DNA from: an uncultured bacterium
GTDB taxonomy: Bacteria; Hydrogenedentota; Hydrogenedentia; Hydrogenedentales; JAEUWI01
DNA length: 12,087 nt
Direction: 5' to 3'
Assembly: GCA_963977445.1 (NCBI GenBank)
Contig: CAXBPH010000213.1
Span: forward strand, 1-12,087
The translations under genes were made by a program, and so were the position numbers. Numbering within the stretch: position 1 is the stretch's first letter; every line of letters begins with the position of its first letter. Below, piece after piece: positions 435 through 11,258 of the stretch. The notes below the pieces were generated by a model. The model was not told the DNA's origin. It saw only the letters and a program-made list of their open reading frames with translations, and did not search any database.

Positions 435-1847
435 TTACACCACCGTTTCTTTCAGGAGGGCACTGAGTCCCTGGCTCAATTCCCGGCCCGCTTCGTGGGC
501 ATAGGGGGGGATATCAAGAATCATGGGCACGGTCATGGCCGCATACTGGCCACCATTGCCGGGCAGGAAGGACTTGGGGTCCGCCACGTAACCGATGAAA
601 CCATCGGTGTAGCCCGTCACCATGGTGTGGTCAAAGGGTGAATCATTGCGGGCCCGGATGCCGTAGTAGCTGAAAAGTTCGGCGGGGTGAAAGGCAATAC
701 CTACATTGCCCAATTGGAGCGCGCTGATGGTCGCGGGGTATTTGGGGGCCTCCCACTTCCGATTGACGTTCGCTTCATACCACTCCTTGGCAAAGCCCGC
801 GTCGACCCAGTTGCCACTGGCACAGGCGTCCGGGTCGGCGGCATAGGTAGCCAGCCAGTTCCGGTAATTATCGAGATCGAGGGACATCTGAAAGACTTGG
901 GTAGTGGCCCGTAGCACGTCCACGTCGATGGGCTGTAGGGCCGCCATAGCCCCCTTAATCCCGTCGAAGGTGGCATTTGCCGATTGCTCTGCTTCGCCAA
1001 TCCATTTCACGCCATTGCCGGGGTTTACGTCGCCCGCGTGTCCCTGGAGGTAAGAGGGCGTGACCTGGAAGGTTTCCTGAACCCGCTGGGTAACGAGGCC
1101 CGGCCAATCGGGGCCTGCGGCACCATCGTTGTAACAGACCGGGTGGGAGGCGAAGTTATACCAAAGGATGTTGTGCTTTCCGTTGCCCCGTTCGAAGTAG
1201 AGGACCTGAAGGAGCGTGTCCAGCCAGCGGTCGTCGTCGGTGGCCTCGGGGGTATACTCGGCGTCCGTTTTCCAGGTTTTCGACGTGCGGTTGAAGTTGC
1301 CGCCTTCGGCCCGGTGGGACCCGATGTGGGCGGTGGCTTCCGCGCAGTCGGCCTGGGCCTGGAGGACCGCGTCCACGGCCTTGGTCTCAACCGATTTCAT
1401 GTAGTCTTCGGGGATGGTGCCCCATTGGCGCCAAAAGGCGAAGGTGGGCATGGAATGGGTGTGGGTGGCGCAAAGACGCACGTTTGCCGCCGGGATGCCG
1501 GTTTTTGCTTCTACGGCATTCTGCACCCGGACTGCCATGGTGTCGGAGACCCCGGCGATATCGACGGAGATAATGGCCGCCTGGGTGTCGCCGTGCTGCA
1601 ACACCAGCGCCCGCACCGCCGTTGCCTGGCGGATGTCAGTGATGTATCGGGGCGTGCCGCCGGCTTTGTAGTGAAAACCCGCGAGTTCAATCTGGGTTGG
1701 CGGCGTCGAGTCGACGTGGGCCTCTCCGACACGGAAGGGCGTCGCCGCACGGGCCTTGAGGATAGTGGGGCCTACCAGTGCGGCAGCGGCACCGCCGAGG
1801 GTGCGTGCGATAAACGAGCGACGGGTGGGGGTGTCAGGGTGTTTCAT
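435..1847 (-). CDS. Tat-exported neutral/alkaline ceramidase-like metallohydrolase
   Basis: 470 aa; N-terminal TRRSFI twin-arginine motif, hydrophobic stretch and ARA cleavage site; family motifs LAGF, ATHTHS, NFASHP, GPDWPG, QGHAGDVNP, PAELF, GY..GY. Confidence 0.8.
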   Translation of the reverse strand: MKHPDTPTRRSFIARTLGGAAAALVGPTILKARAATPFRVGEAHVDSTPPTQIELAGFHYKAGGTPRYITDIRQATAVRALVLQHGDTQAAIISVDIAGVSDTMAVRVQNAVEAKTGIPAANVRLCATHTHSMPTFAFWRQWGTIPEDYMKSVETKAVDAVLQAQADCAEATAHIGSHRAEGGNFNRTSKTWKTDAEYTPEATDDDRWLDTLLQVLYFERGNGKHNILWYNFASHPVCYNDGAAGPDWPGLVTQRVQETFQVTPSYLQGHAGDVNPGNGVKWIGEAEQSANATFDGIKGAMAALQPIDVDVLRATTQVFQMSLDLDNYRNWLATYAADPDACASGNWVDAGFAKEWYEANVNRKWEAPKYPATISALQLGNVGIAFHPAELFSYYGIRARNDSPFDHTMVTGYTDGFIGYVADPKSFLPGNGGQYAAMTVPMILDIPPYAHEAGRELSQGLSALLKETVV

Positions 1848-2153: not shown

Positions 2154-2495
2154 ATGGCATACGACGAAGGACTGGCATCACGGTTGGAAGAAATAATCCT
2201 GCGCGACTTCGTACATGTGGGTGGGTTGACGGAGACCCGCATGTTTGGCGGCTTCGGCTATTTGCTCAATGGCAATATGTGTATGGGTATCCAGAAGGAC
2301 ACCCTGATTATCCGCGTGGGTGTTGATGTGGCTGAAAGGCTCCTGGCCGAGGCGGGGGTCCGTCCCATGGACCTGACGGGTCGGGTGATGAAGGGGTGGG
2401 CGACGGTGGAGCCGGAGGCCATGGAAGACGACGATGAGTTGCTCCGTTTTTGCGGACTTGCCATCAAATTTGCCGGTGAATTGCCCCCGAAATGA
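2154..2495 (+). CDS. TfoX/Sxy family N-terminal domain protein
   Basis: 113 aa; MAYDE.LA.R start, RMFGG.G.L.NGNM, L..RVG, PMD.TGR.MKGW, typical of stand-alone TfoX_N proteins; SD present. Confidence 0.85.
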   Translation: MAYDEGLASRLEEIILRDFVHVGGLTETRMFGGFGYLLNGNMCMGIQKDTLIIRVGVDVAERLLAEAGVRPMDLTGRVMKGWATVEPEAMEDDDELLRFCGLAIKFAGELPPK

Positions 2496-2629: not shown

Positions 2630-3313
2630 ATGTCCTCCATCACAGCGCCATCACCTGCCGAGACCACGGTACGGATGAATGAAATCTACTGCAGCGTCCA
2701 GGGCGAAAGCACCTGGGCCGGGCTGCCGTGTGTATTCATTCGACTCGCCCGGTGCAATTTGCGCTGTCGCTGGTGCGATACGACCTACAGTTTCCACGGG
2801 GGCGAAAACCAGACCATCGCCGAGATTCTGACCCTGGTGGCTGCCTACGGCGTGCCCCTGGTCGAACTCACCGGCGGCGAGCCCCTGGCACAAAAATCCT
2901 GCATCCCCCTCGCTCAGGCGCTGCTGGACGAAGGCTACACCGTACTTATCGAGACGAGCGGCTCCCTGCCCATCAACACCCTGCCCGACCCCGTCATTCG
3001 CATCATGGACCTCAAGTGCCCCGATAGCGACATGAGCAAACACAACGACTGGTCCAATATTGACTATCTCCGGGCCGACCGGGACGAAGTTAAATTTGTG
3101 ATAGCCAGTCGTCGTGATTATGAATGGAGCCGGAATGTGGTCAGGCAGTATAATCTGACGGAACGCTGCCGGGCCGTCCTGTTTTCACCGGTCTTCGGCG
3201 AAGTGAAAGCGAAAGATATTGTCGATTGGATGCTGGAAGACGGCCTGAACGCGGTGCGTTTTCAATTGCAGATGCATAAGTTTATCTGGCCGCCCGACGA
3301 GCGGGGCGTATAG
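2630..3313 (+). CDS. queE: 7-carboxy-7-deazaguanine synthase (radical SAM)
   Basis: 227 aa; EIY.SVQGE, FIRL..CNLRCRWCDT (CxxxCxxC), LTGGEPL, IETSG, MDLKCPDS, QLQMHKFIW; adjacent to queD/queF. Confidence 0.95.
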   Translation: MSSITAPSPAETTVRMNEIYCSVQGESTWAGLPCVFIRLARCNLRCRWCDTTYSFHGGENQTIAEILTLVAAYGVPLVELTGGEPLAQKSCIPLAQALLDEGYTVLIETSGSLPINTLPDPVIRIMDLKCPDSDMSKHNDWSNIDYLRADRDEVKFVIASRRDYEWSRNVVRQYNLTERCRAVLFSPVFGEVKAKDIVDWMLEDGLNAVRFQLQMHKFIWPPDERGV

Positions 3314-3419
3314 CGCGTTTTCCTGCGCTCCTGCTGCATTGCCCAAGGTAGTGTAATCCAGGGTGCCGTCGTGGTGATGTCTTCAACAGCACCGGGCCAC
3401 AAACACGTACAAATTATTC

Positions 3420-4139
3420 ATGCGGAGTAAGAATTCCTTGATAGCCCACCTGACAAAAATTGCCTATGTGGAAGCGGCCCATCGTAACCCGGCGGGCAAC
3501 GAAAAACAGCAACGCCTCCACGGCCACAGTTACAAAGTCGAAATCCTCGCCAAGGGGGGACTGCTGCCCGGTGTGGGCTGGATTGTGGATTACACGGCCC
3601 TGAAGGACCTTTTTCGGGACCTGTATGACCAACTCGATCATGCGACGCTGAATGATGTGCCGGGGTTGGAAAGCGACACGACCGTGCCCGCCCTGGAGCG
3701 TTGGATTGACGCCCGTATAGTGCACAAGCCCACGTGGTATGACGGCGTGCGGGTGACCATCGACGGCGATTTGGATTTTGTGCCGGTCCGTTTACCTGCG
3801 CTGGCCGCAGAGAAGTTGCCGGAGCGCATTCGGTTCAGCTTTGAAGCAGCCCAGTCCCTGCCCCAGCTTCCGGCGGCCCACCCCTGCCATTGTGTCCACG
3901 GGCACAGCTACTGGTTTGAAGTGGGAACGGAAAACCTGGATGGCCTCGAAGTCCACCTGCGGGCTATGTATGACGAACTTGACCACACCTTTCTCAACGA
4001 GATTCCGGGACTGGAATGTGCCACCTGCGAGCGCATCTGTGCGTGGGTGTGGGATCGGCTGGTGGAGGCTGGCGAAACGCCAACGGCCGTGGTCGTTCAG
4101 GAAACCTATACCGCCCGCTGCATGTACTTCGGCGAGTAA
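3420..4139 (+). CDS. queD: 6-carboxy-5,6,7,8-tetrahydropterin synthase, tandem two-domain (duplicated PTPS T-fold) form
   Basis: 239 aa, about twice normal length; two repeats of EAA(H/Q)...HGHSY...LDH..LN..PGLE; lies between queE and queF. Confidence 0.85.
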   Translation: MRSKNSLIAHLTKIAYVEAAHRNPAGNEKQQRLHGHSYKVEILAKGGLLPGVGWIVDYTALKDLFRDLYDQLDHATLNDVPGLESDTTVPALERWIDARIVHKPTWYDGVRVTIDGDLDFVPVRLPALAAEKLPERIRFSFEAAQSLPQLPAAHPCHCVHGHSYWFEVGTENLDGLEVHLRAMYDELDHTFLNEIPGLECATCERICAWVWDRLVEAGETPTAVVVQETYTARCMYFGE

Positions 4140-4156: not shown

Positions 4157-4606
4157 ATGGATAACCCTACCCCGGCCAAAAAACAATTCAAGGCCGAAGA
4201 CAAAATGTTGCCCTTCAAGGGGCCGGAAGCGATCGAGTCTCACCTCCTGGAGTGCTTCGCCTACGAGTATGCCGACAAGCCTTACGGCCAGGCCATGGAA
4301 ATCGAGACCGAAACGGACGAATTTACGTCGGTGTGTCCCTTTTCCGGTTTACCCGATTTTGCCGTTGTGCGCATCGCCTATGTGCCCGATCGGGACTGCC
4401 TGGAACTTCGCTCGCTCAAATACTATCTCCTTTCCTATCGTGATGTGGGCATCTGGTATGAGCATCTGGTCAACCGCATGCTGGAAGACCTCGTGAAGGC
4501 CTGCAAGCCCCGGTCCATGACCATAGAAATCACCTGCAATCCCCGTGGCGGTCTTTCGAGCACCGTAACGGCGGCCTATGACAAGGCCCGGATGGGGTCG
4601 TTGTAG
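4157..4606 (+). CDS. queF: NADPH-dependent preQ0 (7-cyano-7-deazaguanine) reductase, unimodular type
   Basis: 149 aa from ATG 4157 (AAGGAG at 4142-4147; the ORF-track start 4016 overlaps queD); EFTSVCPFSGLPDFA with catalytic Cys/Asp, QueF motif ELRSLKYYLLSYR, PRGG. Confidence 0.92.
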   Translation: MDNPTPAKKQFKAEDKMLPFKGPEAIESHLLECFAYEYADKPYGQAMEIETETDEFTSVCPFSGLPDFAVVRIAYVPDRDCLELRSLKYYLLSYRDVGIWYEHLVNRMLEDLVKACKPRSMTIEITCNPRGGLSSTVTAAYDKARMGSL

Positions 4607-4616
4607 CGTACTGACG

Positions 4617-4891
4617 GAATCAGGCCGCCCTCCTTTCTCTCAACCTTAAAATCAGTATCCTACGGTGACGTGTTCCAAGTTCAACGGACTGTCGGGGTCA
4701 AGGCGCACCCGACCATTTACTGCAGGACGGGGAGCAAGTACCCCGGCTCATCGACAACCCGACAAATTAGGTTGTTCGCCCGATACACCAAATTCGATCG
4801 GGTGGCACGAAGCGGCGTCGCTTTGGTTTGAATCGGGCCGCCCTCCTTCCACTCAACCGTACAATCAATATCCCACGGTGCCACGTGCTCC
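4617..4891. repeat. Imperfect ~60-bp direct repeat pair (4617-4676, 4830-4891) enclosing four small hairpins
   Basis: 44 of the first 51 nt identical by manual alignment; TTCCAAGT also follows both copies (4673-4680, 4902-4909). Confidence 0.8.
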
Positions 4892-4970
4892 GGTCATGTG
4901 TTTCCAAGTCAGCTTCACGCAAGAGGGAAGCGTCGGCGAATTGGGCAAGGACTGCATATCGCGCGTGACC

Positions 4971-4979
4971 TGCTATACT
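4971..4979 (+). promoter_or_regulatory. Extended -10 promoter candidate for the histidine kinase
   Basis: TG-C-TATACT 54 nt upstream of ATG 5034. Confidence 0.45.
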
Positions 4980-5033
4980 GCTTTCTGGGGAGTTGGACCT
5001 CTCAGGATATAACCGGGCGGAGCGTATGGGACG

Positions 5034-8000
5034 ATGCAGTGGTTGGCTATAGTTTTTCTCAGTCTCTGGGCTTCACTTCTTGCAATGCCAGGGTGGAGTG
5101 CATCAGACTTCGAAGTTAACCCGTTTCCCACCCCCAATGGTGCTCCTGTAGCGGAGGTCAATGGTATCGTGGAGGATGGTGATGGCGCTGTCTGGGTGAT
5201 TACCTGGGGCGAAGGGGTGCACCAGATAAATGGTACGTCCTGGAGCACCTATAGGGAAGCGGATGGACTGCCCGACGACTGGGTTCGAAGTATTTCTACT
5301 TCGCCGCGCGGTGGTGTTTGGGTCGGCACCGGCGAGGGTATTGCACGCATCCGGGAGGGGCGCATCGAGCCGATCACACAAGGCAATTTCCCCTTATTTA
5401 CGGACCCCGACATATACTTTGTCAAAGAAACAAGTGATGGTCGGCTCTGGGTGTCCACCCGAAATGGCACCATCCTCGTTCGAGATCCTGATGGTCTTGG
5501 ACCCGACGAAATCAAAGCAGGCTGGCGTGTGTTGGCCCATCCAGACAAGACAGGTGGCGACACGGTCGATCAGCTTGTAGAGGTTGGGCCAGGGGAAGTA
5601 CTGCTATCGATGCGCACCGGGGCAGCGATTTGGATACGGGGCGATGAATGGGTTGTTGACTCAACACTGGTGGCGGAGCTGGACTTCGTCCTGTATTCGG
5701 AAAACATGAATGGGGAGACCATCACCGGGGCATTTGCCAGCGGTGGCGCAATGTCTTACCGGTGGGATGGGGCTGCCTGGATCGCTACGGGATCGGGTCC
5801 GGCGGTGGCGCTCGAGCTGGCCAGTGATAAGGAGGGCCGGTTGTACATGGCAACCTCCAATGGCCTGTATGAGCACAATGAAATCGGCTGGGAACGGTGC
5901 GATTTTCCCAAGGCCCTGGGTGTTCCCTATCTGCAGCACATCCTGGTTTCGCAGGACGGTGCGATTTGGATGGGGGGCACGGAGGGGCTCTATCGCGCTA
6001 CGGTGCCTCCGTGGTCGCAGGAAGCTACCGAAATGACGGTATTGCTTCCCCGGGCGGACGACAAGCAGCCTCTTTTAGGAATCAATTCCGTCGGTACGGT
6101 TTTTCACTACGATGGAGACGGATGGAGCGAGAGATTTACGGTGGCATCGTGGCAGGATACATGGTATCCCGAAGATTCCATCTGGCTGGGCGATGGCCAG
6201 GTATGGCGTAATTCGCGACGTGAATATCAATGGTTGATGGTGGCCCGAAATCAACTCCACTTCATATCCAACGACCAATATATCGTCTACGATCTCGAAG
6301 AGGGACATGTAATTCGAGAGTCAATCCTGCCGCCGATGAGGCCGGCGACGGGGCGTTTTTTTCTAACAAAAGACGAGTCCTTGCTGTGGATTGCTGAAAA
6401 TGAAGTGTTTCGGAACGCGGGCGATTCCTGGCAGTCGTGGCCCCCGGTTCCCGGCTATACGCCGCGGCACACTACGGCGATTTATGAAAGAGAACCGGGA
6501 AAATTTTGGGTCGGTCTGGAAGATGGGATAGAGCTTTGGGCCGATGGGCAGGTGACGTACTATGGGGACGCCGACGGCATTGACTCTGGGGATTCGATAC
6601 ACGGGATTTGTGAGGCGACGAATGGTGAGCTCTGGTTTGGAAGCATGGGGTCGGGAATCTATCGCTACGATGGAGAGACTTTTCGTCAGGTGACTACCGC
6701 TGAAGGTCTTTATCGCAATTCCGTCAGAAACATCATACAAGCTAAGGACGACACGATCTGGATATCGTATCGGGGTACGGGGATTTCCTCCTATCGAAAT
6801 GACCATTGGGTCCACTACACCTTTGAGCATGGTGTGCCCAATGCAACCGTTATGGGTATTGGAGACACCGCTCCGGGGGCCATGTGGATATTCGCGAGCG
6901 ACGAGCACGTCTATCGCTATTTCCCCGACGTGCTGTCACCCGATACCCGCATCCTAGTAGGACCATCCACCCTGGATTCATCGGCGGTCGGCGTATTCTC
7001 TTTTACCGGACGTGACGCGTGGAACCAGACCCAGCCTTCGGAACTTCGTTATTCCTGGCGTATCGTACCTTACGATGGGGAGGGGCACGGGACTTCTTCC
7101 TGGACCATATTTTCGACGGAAGATACGGTGGTGAGCAATACGTTGTCACCAGGGGGATACCAGTTTCAGGTGCGTAGCTCGGATGCGGGAGGTAACATCG
7201 ATCCCACGTCGGCCAATCTAACGTTTGTGGTGCAACCACCCTTCTGGCGAAAGCCCGTGTTCTATGTTCCCGTCGCTTTCTCGTTGTTTCTCGCTGCCCT
7301 CGCCATGGCGTTTCGCTTTCGAAGTCACCGGGCCCTGCAGGCGTCGGAGGCGGCATTGCGATGTTCGGAGCAGGAGCTGAAAGCCCACCGTGACAATCTG
7401 GAGACACTGGTGGCGGCGCGCACCGATGACCTCGAAAAGGCCCAGGCGGAACTGATTCGGAAAGATCGTCTGGCAACCCTGGGGCAACTTACCGCGACCG
7501 TGAGTCACGAATTGCGCAACCCTCTGGGTACGATTCAAAGTTCCCTCTATATGATTGAAAAACGCGTTCGTGGTTCGGATCTCAAACTTGATAAAACCCT
7601 GGATCGGGTCTATCGGAGCGTTCGCCGATGTGATCACATCGTGGAAGAGATGCTCGATTACGCGCGCGTACGTACAAACGATCCGGTGCAGGTGTCATTC
7701 GACCCCTGGTTGCGGGAAACGCTGGCAGAAATTGAAATCCCGGAAGCGGTGGAAATGGATTTGGCCCTGGATTGCGGTGTGTCGGTGGCGATTGACCAGG
7801 AATCCATGCGGCGGGTGCTCATCAATCTGGTCGACAATGCCGTGCAGGCCATGGGCGAAATAGAAGATTGTGAGTCGACAATCCGCGTGATTTCGAAGCG
7901 GCAGCCCGACGAGGTGGTCATTCGGCTGGAAGACACGGGGCCGGGAATCCCGGAGGATGTTCTGGAGCACATCTTTGAGCCGCTGTTTTCCACCAAGAAT

Positions 8001-8165
8001 TTTGGTGTGGGGCTCGGCACCAATATTGTGAAAAACATTGTGGAGAGTCACGGGGGTACTATTGCGTACGCCAACGGGGCAATGGGGGGGGCTTGTGTAA
8101 CCATGACGTTGCCCATCGCGCCGGACCAGACAGCGCACGCTGATCCGGCATATACAAACGGATAA
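5034..8165 (+). CDS. Sensor histidine kinase with periplasmic beta-propeller repeats and Y_Y_Y-like domain
   Basis: 1043 aa; signal peptide; repeated DGL....V.SI.....G.(V/L)W.GT blades; LSPGGYQFQVRS.D..GN.D; TM VFYVPVAFSLFLAALAMAF; coiled coil; H-box SHELRNPL; NLVDNA, DTGPGI, FEPLFSTK, GVGLG. No receiver domain. Confidence 0.92.
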   Translation: MQWLAIVFLSLWASLLAMPGWSASDFEVNPFPTPNGAPVAEVNGIVEDGDGAVWVITWGEGVHQINGTSWSTYREADGLPDDWVRSISTSPRGGVWVGTGEGIARIREGRIEPITQGNFPLFTDPDIYFVKETSDGRLWVSTRNGTILVRDPDGLGPDEIKAGWRVLAHPDKTGGDTVDQLVEVGPGEVLLSMRTGAAIWIRGDEWVVDSTLVAELDFVLYSENMNGETITGAFASGGAMSYRWDGAAWIATGSGPAVALELASDKEGRLYMATSNGLYEHNEIGWERCDFPKALGVPYLQHILVSQDGAIWMGGTEGLYRATVPPWSQEATEMTVLLPRADDKQPLLGINSVGTVFHYDGDGWSERFTVASWQDTWYPEDSIWLGDGQVWRNSRREYQWLMVARNQLHFISNDQYIVYDLEEGHVIRESILPPMRPATGRFFLTKDESLLWIAENEVFRNAGDSWQSWPPVPGYTPRHTTAIYEREPGKFWVGLEDGIELWADGQVTYYGDADGIDSGDSIHGICEATNGELWFGSMGSGIYRYDGETFRQVTTAEGLYRNSVRNIIQAKDDTIWISYRGTGISSYRNDHWVHYTFEHGVPNATVMGIGDTAPGAMWIFASDEHVYRYFPDVLSPDTRILVGPSTLDSSAVGVFSFTGRDAWNQTQPSELRYSWRIVPYDGEGHGTSSWTIFSTEDTVVSNTLSPGGYQFQVRSSDAGGNIDPTSANLTFVVQPPFWRKPVFYVPVAFSLFLAALAMAFRFRSHRALQASEAALRCSEQELKAHRDNLETLVAARTDDLEKAQAELIRKDRLATLGQLTATVSHELRNPLGTIQSSLYMIEKRVRGSDLKLDKTLDRVYRSVRRCDHIVEEMLDYARVRTNDPVQVSFDPWLRETLAEIEIPEAVEMDLALDCGVSVAIDQESMRRVLINLVDNAVQAMGEIEDCESTIRVISKRQPDEVVIRLEDTGPGIPEDVLEHIFEPLFSTKNFGVGLGTNIVKNIVESHGGTIAYANGAMGGACVTMTLPIAPDQTAHADPAYTNG

Positions 8166-8172
8166 TTCCGCG

Positions 8173-8862
8173 TCACATGGTGTAGGGAATGGGGTCTTTG
8201 GTGTGATTGGCGGCAAACGCATTTAACCGTTCCACGCAGGTCGGGCACGTACCACATGCTTCTTCTCTGCCACGATAGCAGCTCCAGGTCTGGGTGAAAT
8301 CCACCCCCAGGGCGATTCCTTTTTTGACGGTGTCGCCCTTCGAGAATGCAACAAAGGGTGCGTGAACCGTGACCGGGGCCTTCCGATTGAGCACCAGGAC
8401 GTTGTTAATGCGCTCAAGAAAGGTGCGGGTGCAATCCCAGTAGCCATACTCGTCCTGCGCCTGGGCACCATAGTACACGTCAGTTATGCCATGGGCTTCG
8501 GCGTAGGCCGCGGCCATGGAGAGCAACATCATATTGCGGTTGGGCACGTAGGTAGGAGGCTGGGTCAATTCTTCGGTCGTGAGGGCGTCCAGATCGGGCA
8601 CCTCCTCGCCCCCTTCAATGAGGGCCGATCCCGCCTGAATCAGGGCACCCATGAAGGTAATGTCCATCACACGGTGTGCGGCTACGCCGACGTCTCGGGC
8701 CTGGGCGTTTGCACACACCAATTCACGACTGTGTCGCTGTCCATAGTTGAAACTCAGGGCATGTATTTCCGGGCAGTTCAAATCTTTGGCAACATGATGG
8801 AGCAAGACGGAGGAATCCAAACCACCGCTCAATAAAACGACTGCGGGTCGAAGGGCAGACAT
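8173..8862 (-). CDS. queC: 7-cyano-7-deazaguanine (preQ0) synthase
   Basis: 229 aa; LSGGLDS PP-loop, YGQRH..E, TYVPNRN, Y(W)DC, TWSCY...CGTCPTC..R Zn site; GGAG SD. Confidence 0.96.
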   Translation of the reverse strand: MSALRPAVVLLSGGLDSSVLLHHVAKDLNCPEIHALSFNYGQRHSRELVCANAQARDVGVAAHRVMDITFMGALIQAGSALIEGGEEVPDLDALTTEELTQPPTYVPNRNMMLLSMAAAYAEAHGITDVYYGAQAQDEYGYWDCTRTFLERINNVLVLNRKAPVTVHAPFVAFSKGDTVKKGIALGVDFTQTWSCYRGREEACGTCPTCVERLNAFAANHTKDPIPYTM

Positions 8863-9105: not shown

Positions 9106-9360
9106 ATGCCAAAAATTACTATCGATGGACAATCAAGAGAGCTTGCGGCGGATGAAGCCATTCAGGCGAGCTGTGATGACTTGGGTGTGCCCTTTGGCTG
9201 CCAGGCGGGTAGCTGCGGCACCTGCGTCATCATCATCGAGCAGGGTATGGAAAACCTTCACCCTCGGAACGAGCTGGAAGAGGATATGGGCCTGAAAGAC
9301 AACGAGCGATTGGCCTGCCAGGCCCGTATCAAAGATGGCGAAGTCGTCGCCACGTGGTAG
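9106..9360 (+). CDS. 2Fe-2S ferredoxin
   Basis: 84 aa acidic protein; PFGCQAGSCGTC (Cx4Cx2C) and RLACQ. Confidence 0.9.
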   Translation: MPKITIDGQSRELAADEAIQASCDDLGVPFGCQAGSCGTCVIIIEQGMENLHPRNELEEDMGLKDNERLACQARIKDGEVVATW

Positions 9361-9520: not shown

Positions 9521-9994
9521 TTAGCCAATATGGCAATGGGCGAGACCTCGTTTTTCGAGATAACGCTGGTGATATTCTTCTCCACGATAGAAGGGCGCAG
9601 CCACAGTGATTTCGGTTACGATAGGTTTGCGAAATGCGCCGGTGTCCTCCATGGCGCTTTTTGAGTGCGTAGCAATCTTGCGCTGTTCGTCATTGTAATA
9701 ATAAATAGCACTTCGATACTGGGTTCCAATATCCGGACCCTGTCGATTCAAGGTCGTGGGATTGTGGCACCGCCAGAATGTGTCGAGGAGGGTTTCGTAT
9801 TTTACCTGGTCCGGGTCAAAGGTCACCTCGATTACTTCGGCATGTCCCGTCTTGCCTGAGCAGACATCTTCATAGGTGGGGTTGTCCAGGTGGCCACCCG
9901 CGTAGCCAACCGCCACATCGCTTACACCCGGCAATTGGCGGAAGGTCGCTTCGACGCCCCAGAAACACCCCGCTCCAAACATCGCTTTTTCCAT
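9521..9994 (-). CDS. msrA: Peptide-methionine (S)-S-oxide reductase
   Basis: 157 aa from ATG 9994 (AAGGAG SD at 10010-10005); GAGCFWG, YEDVC..TGHAE, NRQGPD.GTQYRS, EEYHQ.Y, C-terminal Cys. Confidence 0.96.
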   Translation of the reverse strand: MEKAMFGAGCFWGVEATFRQLPGVSDVAVGYAGGHLDNPTYEDVCSGKTGHAEVIEVTFDPDQVKYETLLDTFWRCHNPTTLNRQGPDIGTQYRSAIYYYNDEQRKIATHSKSAMEDTGAFRKPIVTEITVAAPFYRGEEYHQRYLEKRGLAHCHIG

Positions 9995-10058
9995 ATTAAG
10001 GTTGCTCCTTTCATCGGTGTCCATCGCAAGGCGAAAATGCCGAAACGACGTATCCCAC

Positions 10059-10115
10059 ATCCCTACCGGGATTGATCGTAGCGAATGGGGTATGCAGTAC
10101 AATCCCATCTGGGAT
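10059..10115 (-). promoter_or_regulatory. Predicted msrA promoter flanked by two ATCCC-N4-GGGAT palindromes
   Basis: - strand TTGTAC (10102-10097), 16-nt spacer, TACGAT (10080-10075); palindromes at 10059-10072 and 10102-10115. Confidence 0.5.
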
Positions 10116-10313: not shown

Positions 10314-11258
10314 ATGCCAGAAAAAGCACCCAATGATGCGATCGTGGTCGCCGCACTCTACCAGTTCGCCCCCCTGACCGACTACAAATCCCTCCGTGAA
10401 CCTCTGACGCAAGTCGCTGAAGAGCAAGGGATTAAGGGCACCCTGCTGCTCGCCGCCGAGGGGATAAACGGAACGATTGCGGGCTCGCGCACGGGGATAG
10501 ACAACGTGTTGGCGTGGCTTCGTTCCGATCCGCGCCTTGCCAATCTGGAACACAAGGAATCTTTTTACGACGCCCAGCCCTTTTATCGCCTTAAGGTGCG
10601 GTTGAAGAAGGAAATAGTCACCCTGGGCGTGCCGGGCATTGACCCCAACGAACAGGTGGGCACCTATGTGAGTCCCCGGGAGTGGAACGAACTTCTTGCC
10701 GATCCCGACGTGATCGTGGTGGATACGCGCAATGACTATGAGGTTGGCGTGGGCACTTTTACGGGCGCGCTGGACCCCGACACGAAGACTTTCCGGGAAT
10801 TTCCCGAGTTTGTGCGCAACGAGATGGACCCGGCAAAACAAAAAAAAGTCGCTATGTTTTGCACCGGTGGTATTCGCTGTGAAAAGGCCTCGGCACTCAT
10901 GTTGGCCGAAGGCTTCGAAGAGGTCTTCCATCTCAAAGGGGGCATTCTGAAGTATCTCGAAGAGGTACCGGAATCGGAAAGTCTCTGGCAGGGGGAGTGT
11001 TTCGTTTTCGACGAACGAGTCGCCGTGGGCCATGGTCTGGAACCGGGTACCCATGAACTTTGCCGGGGTTGCCGTATGCCGGTGTCACCCGAAGACAAGG
11101 AATCCACCGCATACCGCGAAGGGATTTGTTGTCCCCGCTGTGTCGCTGAATTGACACCGGAGAAAGAGGCCCGGCTTATGGAGCGGCACCACCAATCCAA
11201 ATTGGCCGAGGCCCGCAACGAGCGCCATGTGGGCCGGGTGGATCAACGCAATCCCTGA
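10314..11258 (+). CDS. trhO: Oxygen-dependent tRNA uridine(34) hydroxylase (YceA/UPF0176 rhodanese family)
   Basis: 314 aa; [63 protein letters not shown]-terminal Cys cluster. Confidence 0.93.

What the first reader, a model, noticed from the sequence alone, without database searches (positions are those of the whole stretch)
3420..4139. Fused two-domain QueD with complementary loss of active-site motifs
Seen: domain 1 keeps all three Zn histidines (H21, H34, H36), the GWIVDY pocket segment and DH, but has Gln at the catalytic Cys position (KQQRLHGH vs canonical KCxxLHGH) and lacks the TxE and ET glutamates. Domain 2 keeps Cys (PCHCVHGH), DH, TCE and QET, but has Gln145 in place of the first Zn His (EAAQ) and has deleted the GWIxDF segment; it has extra potential ligands (H154, H157, C158, C200, C203, C207). 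Known: PTPS/QueD active sites form at subunit interfaces of T-fold oligomers, and tandem forms such as QueD2 exist. Inference: neither half is complete, so the protein may build one composite site per chain with altered metal ligation, leaving the His3 site of domain 1 as a non-catalytic metal site. Possibly an undescribed QueD subtype.
Basis: partly seen in the sequence, partly recalled or inferred. Interest (0 to 1): 0.7.

Follow-up and report, generated by a model that had tools for sequence, protein, structure and literature searches.

The report
Two-module QueD with split active site
This gene encodes a queuosine-pathway enzyme (QueD) made of two fused copies of its usual single domain, each keeping only part of the catalytic equipment, and the arrangement is conserved across a whole bacterial order and appears not to have been described for QueD.

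Summary
ORF 3420-4139 (+), whose real start is probably TTG 3438 (233 aa), encodes two tandem PTPS/QueD T-fold modules.

- **Module T1 (res 7-125):** keeps the three Zn histidines, the GWxxD hairpin and Asp-His. It lacks the catalytic Cys (Gln30) and both pterin/catalytic Glu.
- **Module T2 (res 136-239):** keeps Cx3HGH, TxE, ET and Asp-His. It has Gln145 at the first Zn-His position and an 11-residue deletion of the GW hairpin.

This is not decay. The pattern is invariant or nearly so in 121 homologues. The fused gene was found in 112 of 119 sampled genomes of the same order, Hydrogenedentota. It is the only PTPS-family gene in this genome and sits in a queE-queD-queF operon, with queC, tgt, queA, folE and folB also present.

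A separate three-module QueD family shows the same division of labour, apparently by convergence.

Best reading: a functional bimodular CPH4 synthase. T2 is the catalytic module and T1 supplies Asp-His and the GW hairpin in trans.

QueD2 is not a tandem form, and the "extra ligands" are not conserved. I rate it a new variant of a known kind, of moderate interest.

The parts
2630..3313 (+). [quoted passage not shown]
   Evidence: Pfam Radical_SAM. NCBIfam TIGR04349 QueE scores 268.7 bits, below its 300-bit cutoff. It lies next to the fused queD in 9 of 11 relatives' loci.
3420..4139 (+). Bimodular queD ORF, 239 aa from ATG 3420. The likely true start is TTG 3438, giving 233 aa.
   Evidence: The homologues' length mode is 233 aa and Met aligns with residue 7 in 100 of 121. 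The Atlas record starts at residue 7. GGAG at 3424-3427 could serve as a ribosome-binding site (read directly).
3438..3794 (+). Module T1 (res 7-125), the accessory T-fold. It has His21/His34/His36, Gln30 at the Cys position, GWxxD 53-57 and Asp73-His74, and lacks the Glu86 and Glu110 equivalents (Val89, Ile114).
   Evidence: Alignment to E. coli QueD; conservation; AF2 secondary structure E8-21, E34-47, H58-72, H89-99, E107-114, E123-125; VIA Z 10.6, rmsd 1.6 over 109 residues to 3qn0.
3795..3824 (+). Linker, res 126-135 (PALAAEKLPE), between T1 strand 4 and T2 strand 1
   Evidence: AF2 secondary structure. P134 is nearly invariant.
3825..4136 (+). Module T2 (res 136-239), the catalytic T-fold. 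It has Gln145 at the first Zn-ligand position, His154, Cys156-x3-His160-Gly-His162, Asp188-His189, Thr202-x-Glu204 and Glu228-Thr229. The GW hairpin is deleted.
   Evidence: AF2 secondary structure E136-145, E160-170, H173-187, H203-216, E221-229, E232-236.
4157..4606 (+). queF (unimodular preQ1 synthase, 149 aa), 17 nt downstream of queD and preceded by AAGGAG
   Evidence: Pfam QueF; TIGR03139 at 125.4 bits against a cutoff of 86.9; sequence read.
8173..8862 (-). [quoted passage not shown]
   Evidence: Pfam QueC E 2e-62; TIGR00364 at 187.9 bits against a cutoff of 150.3.

Best explanation
The gene encodes a functional, bimodular (two tandem T-fold) 6-carboxy-tetrahydropterin (CPH4) synthase. 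It is the only QueD of this Hydrogenedentota bacterium.

After an internal duplication the two modules specialised.
- **T2** is the catalytic module. It holds every element that acts from within one module: the HGH metal histidines, the Cx3HGH cysteine, and the TxE and ET glutamates.
- **T1** is an accessory module. It supplies the elements that in homo-oligomeric QueD come from other subunits: the Asp-His pair that reaches into the site from the opposite ring, and the GWxxD hairpin.

Each chain therefore builds one catalytic centre, completed by T1-type modules of the same or partner chains.

In the Hydrogenedentota clade the first metal ligand of T2 has become Gln145. The metal is then probably held by His160 and His162 plus either the trans His74 of T1, as seen for the equivalent His in the QueD2 crystal structure, or the Gln side chain. 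The fully conserved His3 triad of T1 probably still binds a metal without catalysing.

**Shown:** domain structure, motif pattern, conservation, genomic context, and the convergent parallel in three-module forms.

**Inferred:** enzymatic activity, which module gives what in trans, metal ligation, and oligomeric state. The most likely assembly has the modules side by side in one ring, for example two chains per ring and two rings stacked.
For: 1. **Family and context.** PF01242 hits twice and TIGR03367 QueD scores above its cutoff. Both halves match E. coli QueD structures. [quoted passage not shown]
2. **Sole family member in a complete pathway.** The two halves of this gene are the only PF01242 hits in the 94%-complete genome. 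queE lies upstream, queF downstream and queC 4 kb away. tgt, queA, folE and folB are present elsewhere.
3. **Synteny.** Next to the fused queD, queE was seen in 9 and the queF region in 10 of 11 relatives' loci, and both in 8.
4. **Purifying selection on both modules.** Mean pairwise identity is 57% for T1 and 60% for T2 over 1,500 pairs of 123 sequences. The catalytic pattern is invariant in 121 of 121.
5. **Phylogenetic spread.** 112 of 119 sampled genomes of the same order have a match. By my count of the table about 107 span both modules in one frame.
6. **Co-occurrence logic.**
   - In 45 two-module proteins, T2 has Cys in 44, HGH in 45, Glu86 in 44 and Glu110 in 45, and the GW hairpin is deleted in 42.
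   - T1 has GW..D in 42-43 and Asp-His in 43-44, with Cys in none of the 39 shown in the five-residue tally of that column (the remaining 6 not listed) and Glu110 in none.
   - In 56 three-module proteins, the middle module B has His1, Cys, HGH, Thr84, Glu86 and Glu110 in 56 of 56, but Asp70 in only 15 and His71 in only 18.
   - The last module C has Trp, the hairpin Asp and Asp-His in 56 of 56 and has lost His1 and Cys.
   - The same split arises in separate clades of the domain tree.
7. **Trans role of Asp-His.** Several deep two-module relatives have lost the Asp-His of T2 (LNY, LDR, VGH, LNN), while T1 keeps it in all of them.
8. **Literature.**
   - In E. coli QueD the His71 of the catalytic triad comes from the opposite protomer.
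   - In A. baumannii QueD2 that His ligates the Zn in place of the first His (PMC9894224, section 7).
   - Bimodular QueF likewise splits its active-site elements between two T-fold modules (PMC5372742, passages).
Against: - No activity, metal or oligomer data exist for this protein.
- Gln at a Zn-ligand position is unusual, and no new His, Cys, Asp or Glu appears alongside the His-to-Gln change. The ten positions that switch with it are 26, 44, 56, 106, 109, 111, 125, 133, 145 and 150. Metal binding in T2 could therefore be weakened.
- In the Hydrogenedentota clade the Asp-His of T2 is invariant (121 of 121) and so, nearly, is the His3 triad of T1. A purely dead T1 site does not predict that, so the T1 site may have a role I have not identified.
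- I could not inspect the interdomain geometry of the model. Neither Foldseek nor VIA-align matched both modules together to uricase, FolE2 or bimodular QueF.
- The assignment of Glu86 and Glu110 as acting within one module rests on co-occurrence and on my recollection of the PTPS literature, not on a structure examined here.
Confidence: 0.7

Rival explanations
1. The overall function is the same, but the architecture differs. T1 and T2 of one chain stack head to head, so three chains give a T1 ring on a T2 ring that mimics the QueD hexamer. Alternatively the protein forms a non-tunnel dimer like bimodular QueF.
For: - The canonical QueD ring is a trimer, which two-module chains cannot tile side by side.
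- Head-to-head stacking would place the Asp-His of T1 opposite the T2 site within one chain.
- V. cholerae bimodular QueF abandons the tunnel altogether.
- The model did not superpose as a pair on uricase or FolE2.
Against: - Both ends of a T-fold module lie at the end far from the ring-ring interface. I infer this because His1 ends strand 1 and Glu110 ends strand 3, both at the active-site end.
- The 10-residue linker from T1 strand 4 to T2 strand 1 therefore fits a hairpin between neighbours in one ring. It is too short to span two stacked barrels.
- In three-module forms the junctions are 4-5-residue hairpins.
- QueD2 shows that this fold can form four-membered rings.
Confidence: 0.15
2. 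The enzyme has a new function. The altered metal site (Gln145) and the missing hairpin change the chemistry, so the product is another pterin rather than CPH4: a PTPS-II, PTPS-III or novel activity.
For: The COG0720 family is catalytically promiscuous and small motif changes switch function (PMC5041015, passages). An invariant Gln at a ligand position is unique to this clade.
Against: - T2 has the PTPS-I spacing Cx3HGH, not Cx5HGH (PTPS-II) or ExxHGH (PTPS-III). The residue after the Cys is R, K or H.
- The gene lies between queE and queF.
- No other QueD exists in a genome that has queC, queE, queF, tgt and queA.
- folB is present, so no PTPS-III bypass is needed.
Confidence: 0.08
3. T1, with its intact His3 zinc site, is the real catalytic metal centre, and T2 contributes Cys and Glu across the interface. 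Alternatively both sites turn over.
For: T1 keeps all three Zn histidines in 43-44 of 45 proteins, whereas T2 of this clade lacks one. The Asp-His of T2 is invariant in this clade, as if it serves the T1 site.
Against: - In the three-module family, the module with Cys and both Glu also has all three His in 56 of 56. The accessory modules lose His1 (Arg in 48 of 56 A modules; not among the residues tallied for C, where the commonest are Val, a gap, Leu, Arg and Thr). These elements therefore work together within one module.
- Ten deep two-module relatives have a complete His3-plus-Cys set in T2.
- In E. coli QueD the Cys sits on a short helix right next to its own module's metal.
Confidence: 0.06
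4. The feature is an artefact or decay: an assembly or frameshift fusion of two genes, or a degenerating duplicate.
For: None beyond the unusual substitutions.
Against: - The same single open frame is found in 112 of 119 sampled genomes of the order and in more than 120 metagenomic clusters.
- The substitutions are invariant.
- Both modules are equally conserved.
Confidence: 0.01

Closest known systems
E. coli QueD (PTPS-I, CPH4 synthase; PDB 4ntk/4ntm/3qn0)
   Same: - T-fold with the Cx3HGH motif, the Asp-His pair, and the TxE and ET glutamates, all present in T2.
- His3, the GW hairpin and Asp-His, all present in T1.
- About 40% identity per module.
- The same pathway context.
   Different: E. 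coli QueD is unimodular and homohexameric, with six identical sites. Here two modules are fused, neither is complete, the first metal ligand of the catalytic module is Gln, and that module has lost the GW hairpin.
A. baumannii QueD2 (PDB 7v0f)
   Same: - A CPH4 synthase of PTPS-I.
- In its crystal structure the first His does not ligate Zn and the trans His of the Asp-His motif does. That is a precedent for a site working without the first His.
- It forms four-membered rings.
   Different: It has a single T-fold plus a C-terminal extension, a Cx4HGH motif, a second Zn site and an octameric assembly. Sequence similarity is weak (E 1e-7; VIA Z 6.2). It is not a tandem form.
Bimodular T-fold enzymes of the same pathway: bimodular QueF and FolE2 (also uricase)
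   Same: They have two tandem, weakly homologous T-fold modules. In bimodular QueF the catalytic Cys and Glu sit in one module and the QueF motif in the other.
   Different: They are different families with different chemistry. A whole-chain structural match was not obtained: alignments covered one module, apart from a poor two-module one to bimodular QueF 3bp1 (Z 3.5, rmsd 11.4, 135 residues).
Dual-domain bacterial PTPS-II of cyanobacteria (Kong et al. 2006, FEBS Lett 580:4900)
   Same: A two-domain PTPS-family protein. I saw only the title in a reference list; its content is recalled, not read.
   Different: PTPS-II carries Cx5HGH and makes 6-pyruvoyl-tetrahydropterin for biopterin. This protein has Cx3HGH and a queuosine context.
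Three-module PTPS-I proteins (e.g. Thiospirillum jenense WP_182583977; Planctomycetota MAGs), found here
   Same: - The same division of labour: one complete catalytic module without the GW hairpin, and an accessory module with the GW hairpin and Asp-His.
- They sit next to queC and a QueE-like radical SAM gene.
- Databases annotate them only as 6-carboxytetrahydropterin synthase.
   Different: They have three modules in the order degenerate, catalytic, accessory. The catalytic module keeps His1. Their modules form clades separate from T1 and T2 in the domain tree, so the fusion was probably independent.

Membership tests
PTPS / COG0720 superfamily (PF01242) | [quoted passage not shown] | tested here: met
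   PF01242 scores 119.4 bits against a cutoff of 22.4, in two stretches. [quoted passage not shown] VIA Z is 10.6 to 3qn0.
PTPS-I / QueD (CPH4 synthase) | Cx3HGH catalytic motif | tested here: met
   T2 has C156-H-C-V-H160-G-H162. Cys, His and His are each 121 of 121.
PTPS-I / QueD (CPH4 synthase) | Score above the curated equivalog cutoff (TIGR03367) | tested here: met
   115.3 bits against a cutoff of 89.25. The score is summed over two stretches.
PTPS-I / QueD (CPH4 synthase) | Three His metal ligands (N-terminal His plus HGH) in the same module as the catalytic Cys | tested here: not met
   T2 has Gln145 at the N-terminal His position in 121 of 121. The complete His3 triad lies in T1, which has no Cys.
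PTPS-I / QueD (CPH4 synthase) | Unimodular subunit forming a homohexamer | tested here: not met
   The chain holds two modules. The oligomeric state was not obtained.
PTPS-I / QueD (CPH4 synthase) | Genomic link to preQ0/queuosine genes | tested here: met
   queE-queD-queF with queC nearby, conserved in relatives. It is the only PTPS gene in the genome.
PTPS-I / QueD (CPH4 synthase) | CPH4 synthase activity | not testable with these tools
   Needs an enzyme assay or genetic complementation.
QueD2 | Cx4HGH motif, extra Cys or His between the first His and the catalytic Cys, and a C-terminal extension (190-200 aa) or an N-terminal domain of about 180 aa | tested here: not met
   The spacing is Cx3, there is no C-terminal extension, and the N-terminal part is itself a PTPS module. 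The match to 7v0f is weak.
PTPS-II | Cx5HGH motif | tested here: not met
   Cx3HGH in T2 and no Cys in T1.
PTPS-III or the PTPS-I/III hybrid | ExxHGH or CExxHGH motif | tested here: not met
   The residue after Cys156 is R in 55, K in 23 and H in 21, with no Glu listed. folB is present.
Bimodular T-fold class (FolE2, bimodular QueF, uricase) | Two tandem T-fold modules in one chain | tested here: met
Bimodular T-fold class (FolE2, bimodular QueF, uricase) | The same relative placement of the two modules (continuous eight-stranded sheet) | tested here: inconclusive
   Foldseek and VIA matches to 2r5r, uricases and 8tcc covered only one module, and 3bp1 aligned 135 residues across both modules only at rmsd 11.4 (Z 3.5). 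I could not inspect the model coordinates.

The most novel reading that the evidence does not exclude
QueD has uncharacterised bimodular and trimodular forms in which a homo-oligomeric T-fold ring has become a pseudo-oligomer with one catalytic module per chain. In the Hydrogenedentota form the catalytic metal is held by only two cis histidines plus a trans His (His74 of T1) or Gln145. That would give a different metal affinity or specificity from canonical Zn-QueD, while the intact His3 site of T1 acts as a separate structural or sensing metal site. The protein would then be a natural, order-wide test of which QueD active-site elements act in cis and which in trans.
Probability: 0.25. Interest if true: 0.65.

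Novelty: new variant of a known kind. Interest (0 to 1): 0.5.

Why it matters
QueD was the one T-fold enzyme of the preQ1 pathway known only as a unimodular homohexamer, whereas FolE/FolE2 and QueF each have uni- and bimodular forms. This finding gives three things.

- **A natural dissection of the site.** Conserved two- and three-module QueDs sort the active-site elements into those that act within a module (His, Cys, Glu) and those supplied by partners (Asp-His, GW hairpin). Mutagenesis of homo-oligomers cannot separate these cleanly.
- **A link to the QueD2 metal-site question.** The order-wide Gln at a Zn-ligand position bears on the open question raised by QueD2: is the first His really needed, and how do metal sites shift under zinc limitation?
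- **A practical annotation point.** These proteins are labelled simply as 6-carboxytetrahydropterin synthase, and motif-based PTPS classification could misjudge each half as defective.

The enzymology itself, CPH4 synthesis for queuosine, is expected to be ordinary.

Tried and rejected
- **Homotrimer prediction.** The three runs scored 0.02, 0.62 and 0.02 and the verdict was 'no answer'. It gives no information on the oligomer either way.
- **Whole-chain structural searches.** Neither Foldseek pdb nor VIA-align wide matched both modules together to a bimodular T-fold chain.
- **Homologue search with a 16-sequence alignment.** I then used single protein P0133. That returned 25 loci, of which only L015 is two-module and the rest are ordinary single-domain queD. 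The taxonomic range of the deep His-type two-module relatives therefore remains unknown. L015 has no queuosine genes within 5 kb.
- **Papers not held.** Miles et al. 2014 (JBC) and Phillips et al. 2012 (ACS Chem Biol) could not be read. Statements on E. coli QueD residue roles come from Jordan et al. 2022 or from recall.
- **Rfam scan of the window.** No match, so no preQ1 riboswitch was found.
- **Earlier findings of this scan.** Nothing returned.
- **Compensating ligand for Gln145.** None found.
- **QueD2 membership and decay or artefact.** Both considered and rejected, as set out in the membership test and rivals.
- **Mis-set coordinate.** My QueF query was one base out of frame. Its hits reflect DNA similarity in the wrong frame, so I use that call for synteny only. 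The coordinates were corrected.
Full report
**What is there.** The window holds a queuosine gene cluster. queE runs from 2630 to 3313 (+), the ORF in question from 3420 to 4139 (+), and queF from 4157 to 4606 (+). A large sensor kinase follows, then queC at 8173-8862 (-).

The ORF translates to 239 aa. Homologues are mostly 233 aa and start at the residue aligned with position 7, which is Met in 100 of 121. The ESM Atlas holds the sequence from residue 7. The real start is therefore probably TTG 3438, with GGAG at 3424-3427 as a possible ribosome-binding site.

**Checking the observation.**
- Pfam finds two PTPS domains (119 bits).
- NCBIfam's QueD equivalog model scores above its cutoff (115 against 89 bits).
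- Both halves align to E. coli QueD crystal structures at E 2e-28.

The N-terminal module (T1, res 7-125) has His21, His34, His36, GWIVDY and Asp73-His74. It has Gln30 where QueD has the catalytic Cys27, Val89 where QueD has Glu86, and Ile114 where QueD has Glu110.

The C-terminal module (T2, res 136-239) has Cys156-x3-His160-Gly-His162, Asp188-His189, Thr202-x-Glu204 and Glu228-Thr229. It has Gln145 at the position of the first metal His, and it lacks 11 residues that form the GWxxD hairpin in single-domain QueD.

An AlphaFold2 model built on 113 homologues is very confident (pLDDT 96.4, pTM 0.90). [quoted passage not shown] Each module superposes on QueD (VIA Z 10.6, rmsd 1.6 over 109 residues to 3qn0).

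**Not decay, not an artefact.**
- A homologue search returned 147 proteins, and the 120 listed are nearly all 232-237 aa.
- In the 121-sequence alignment the pattern is fixed. Q145, H154, C156, H160, H162, D188, H189, T202, E204, E228, T229, D73, H74 and I114 are each 121 of 121. H21 is 120 of 121, and H34 and H36 are 119 of 121. Position 30 is Gln in 102, Ala in 9 and Glu in 7.
- The two modules are about equally conserved, at 57% and 60% mean pairwise identity.
- Among 121 genomes sampled across the phylum, 112 of the 119 from the same order, this genome included, have a match. By my count about 107 span both modules in one frame. The seven without a match all belong to one family and are 78-97% complete. 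The two genomes from other orders gave only weak single-domain-sized hits.
- Named members are Hydrogenedentes/Hydrogenedentota MAGs.

**Function from context.**
- The two halves of this gene are the only PF01242 matches in the 94%-complete genome.
- The genome also encodes tgt, queA, type-I folE and folB, in addition to queE, queF and queC in the window.
- Next to the fused queD, queE was seen in 9 and the queF region in 10 of 11 relatives' loci, and both in 8. My QueF query in that call was one base out of frame, so I use it for synteny only.
- A complete de novo queuosine pathway with this protein as its only possible QueD argues that it is an active CPH4 synthase.
- The T2 motif is Cx3HGH, which defines PTPS-I. 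It is not Cx4HGH (QueD2), Cx5HGH (PTPS-II) or ExxHGH (PTPS-III). The motif definitions come, and the residue after the Cys is R, K or H.

**A second, larger family shows the same logic.** An exhaustive representative search found about 13 two-module clusters. Among the best 150 representatives it also found 67 proteins of 300-399 aa (length bins).

These longer proteins carry three PTPS modules. Examples come from Thiospirillum jenense and Planctomycetota and are annotated only as 6-carboxytetrahydropterin synthase.

I split 45 two-module proteins, 56 three-module proteins and 37 single-domain proteins into modules with a profile built from the single-domain set. The 45 two-module proteins were every fourth one plus all those, and include two likely fragments of three-module proteins (P0209, P0246) and two cluster members added. 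I then tabulated the E. coli QueD positions.

| Module | n | His1 | Cys27 | HGH | GW hairpin | Asp70-His71 | Glu86 | Glu110 |
|---|---|---|---|---|---|---|---|---|
| T1 (two-module, first) | 45 | 43 | none listed (39 of 45 shown) | 44-45 | 42-43 | 43-44 | 7 | 0 |
| T2 (two-module, second) | 45 | Gln 33, His 11 | 44 | 45 | deleted in 42 | 41 | 44 | 45 |
| B (three-module, middle) | 56 | 56 | 56 | 56 | mostly lost | Asp 15, His 18 | 56 | 56 |
| C (three-module, last) | 56 | lost | lost | His31 29, His33 49 | Trp 56, Asp 56 | 56 | 4 | 20 |
| A (three-module, first) | 56 | Arg 48 | lost | 51-52 | mostly lost | mostly Asp-Tyr | 13 | 0 |

In a FastTree of the modules, T1, T2, A, B and C each form their own clade, with supports of 0.96, 0.955, 0.93, 0.84 and 0.82. 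T1 is not sister to C and T2 is not sister to B. The two fusions therefore look independent and convergent, although the deep nodes are weak on 120 columns.

The three-module genes sit next to queC and a QueE-like radical SAM gene. Of the 12 three-module loci scanned (L015, scanned in the same call, is two-module), queC lies upstream in 3, and a radical SAM gene lies directly downstream at E below 1e-5 in 4. One locus (L056) carries two DndB-like genes and a TGT-like gene, which resembles a 7-deazaguanine DNA-modification island.

An AF2 model of the Thiospirillum protein is confident (pLDDT 96.2, pTM 0.92). It shows three full T-folds joined by 4-5-residue beta-hairpins, as expected for a single-chain three-module ring.

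**How it most likely works.** Elements that always travel together in one module must act together from within that module. These are the first His, Cys, HGH, Thr84/Glu86 and Glu110. Elements that the catalytic module can lose but the accessory module never loses must act in trans. These are Asp-His and the GW hairpin.

Structural work fits this. In E. coli QueD the His71 of the catalytic triad comes from the opposite protomer. In A. baumannii QueD2 the equivalent His bridges the two rings and even ligates the catalytic Zn in place of the first His (PMC9894224, section 7).

Ten deeper two-module relatives (35-42% identity) keep His at the first-ligand position of T2. Several of them have lost the Asp-His of T2 but never that of T1.

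I therefore read T2 as the catalytic module and T1 as the donor of Asp73-His74 and the hairpin, giving one catalytic centre per chain.

Gln145 is a derived, fixed feature of the Hydrogenedentota clade: 123 Gln-type against 10 His-type sequences. No new potential ligand appears together with it. The metal is thus probably held by His160 and His162 plus either trans His74, as in QueD2, or the Gln itself. This step is inferred.

The nearly invariant His3 triad of T1, and the invariant Asp-His of T2 in this clade, are not explained by a simply dead T1 site. A structural or sensing metal site is my guess.

**Architecture.** This section is inference. His1 ends strand 1 and Glu110 ends strand 3 at the active-site end. 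Both termini of a module therefore lie at the far end of the barrel.

A 10-residue linker from T1 strand 4 to T2 strand 1 then fits neighbours in one ring. It does not fit a head-to-head stack within one chain.

A ring of four modules (two chains), stacked in pairs like uricase or the QueD2 octamer, with T1 facing T2 across the interface, would satisfy the motif logic. A non-tunnel dimer like bimodular QueF is not excluded. The oligomer prediction gave no answer, as recorded under what was tried and rejected.

**Comparison with the literature.**
- A 2016 review describes QueD as a unimodular homohexamer, and FolE/FolE2 and QueF as having uni- and bimodular forms.
- Bimodular QueF splits its catalytic elements between modules, which is the closest conceptual precedent.
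- A dual-domain bacterial PTPS-II is cited in a reference list by title (Kong et al. 2006). I could not read it or compare sequences.
- The four full-text searches aimed at tandem, fused or bimodular PTPS/QueD forms found no description of a bi- or trimodular QueD. The library lacks many subscription papers, including Phillips 2012 and Miles 2014. I did not open the supplementary network figures of Jordan 2022.

**Verdict.** The composite-site interpretation is supported in its core and corrected in its details.

This is a new variant (bimodular, with an altered metal ligand) of a known enzyme kind. Its pathway role is almost certainly ordinary, but it offers an informative natural dissection of the QueD active site. 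Interest 0.5.

Noticed in passing
Proteins P0135-P0272; loci L040-L074: A widespread family of three-module PTPS-I/QueD proteins of about 330-385 aa. Only the middle module keeps the full catalytic set (56 of 56), the last module keeps the GW hairpin and Asp-His (56 of 56), and the first is degenerate. The AF2 model has pLDDT 96.2 and pTM 0.92 with tight hairpin junctions, consistent with a single-chain three-module ring.
   Followed up: partly
L056:797-6734 and L074:2127-9862: In two metagenome loci the three-module QueD lies with queC and a QueE-like gene. L056 also has two DndB-like genes and a TGT-like gene, and L074 has an integrase and an SNF2 helicase. This resembles a 7-deazaguanine DNA-modification (dpd-like) island rather than a tRNA pathway operon.
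   Followed up: no
window 5034-8165 (+): A 1043-aa hybrid sensor kinase with Reg_prop beta-propeller repeats, Y_Y_Y, HisKA and HATPase domains sits between queF and queC and splits the queuosine genes. In relatives L010 and L011, queC directly follows queF.
   Followed up: no
window 4665-5012 (+): A 115-aa ORF just downstream of queF has no Pfam or NCBIfam match.
   Followed up: no
window 3314-3419: A 106-nt spacer separates queE from the fused queD. No Rfam family, including preQ1 riboswitches, matches anywhere in the window at gathering threshold.
   Followed up: partly
window 435-1847 (-), 2154-2495 (+), 9106-9360 (+), 9521-10108 (-), 10314-11258 (+): Unrelated neighbours: a protein with a neutral ceramidase N-terminal domain, a TfoX-N protein, a 2Fe-2S ferredoxin, MsrA, and a UPF0176/rhodanese (TrhO-like) protein.
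   Followed up: no
P0124 (287 aa): One two-module relative carries an insertion of about 50 residues, rich in Pro, Ser and Ala, inside T2 between strand 2 and helix 1. That is exactly where the GW hairpin was deleted, so this position tolerates large changes.
   Followed up: no
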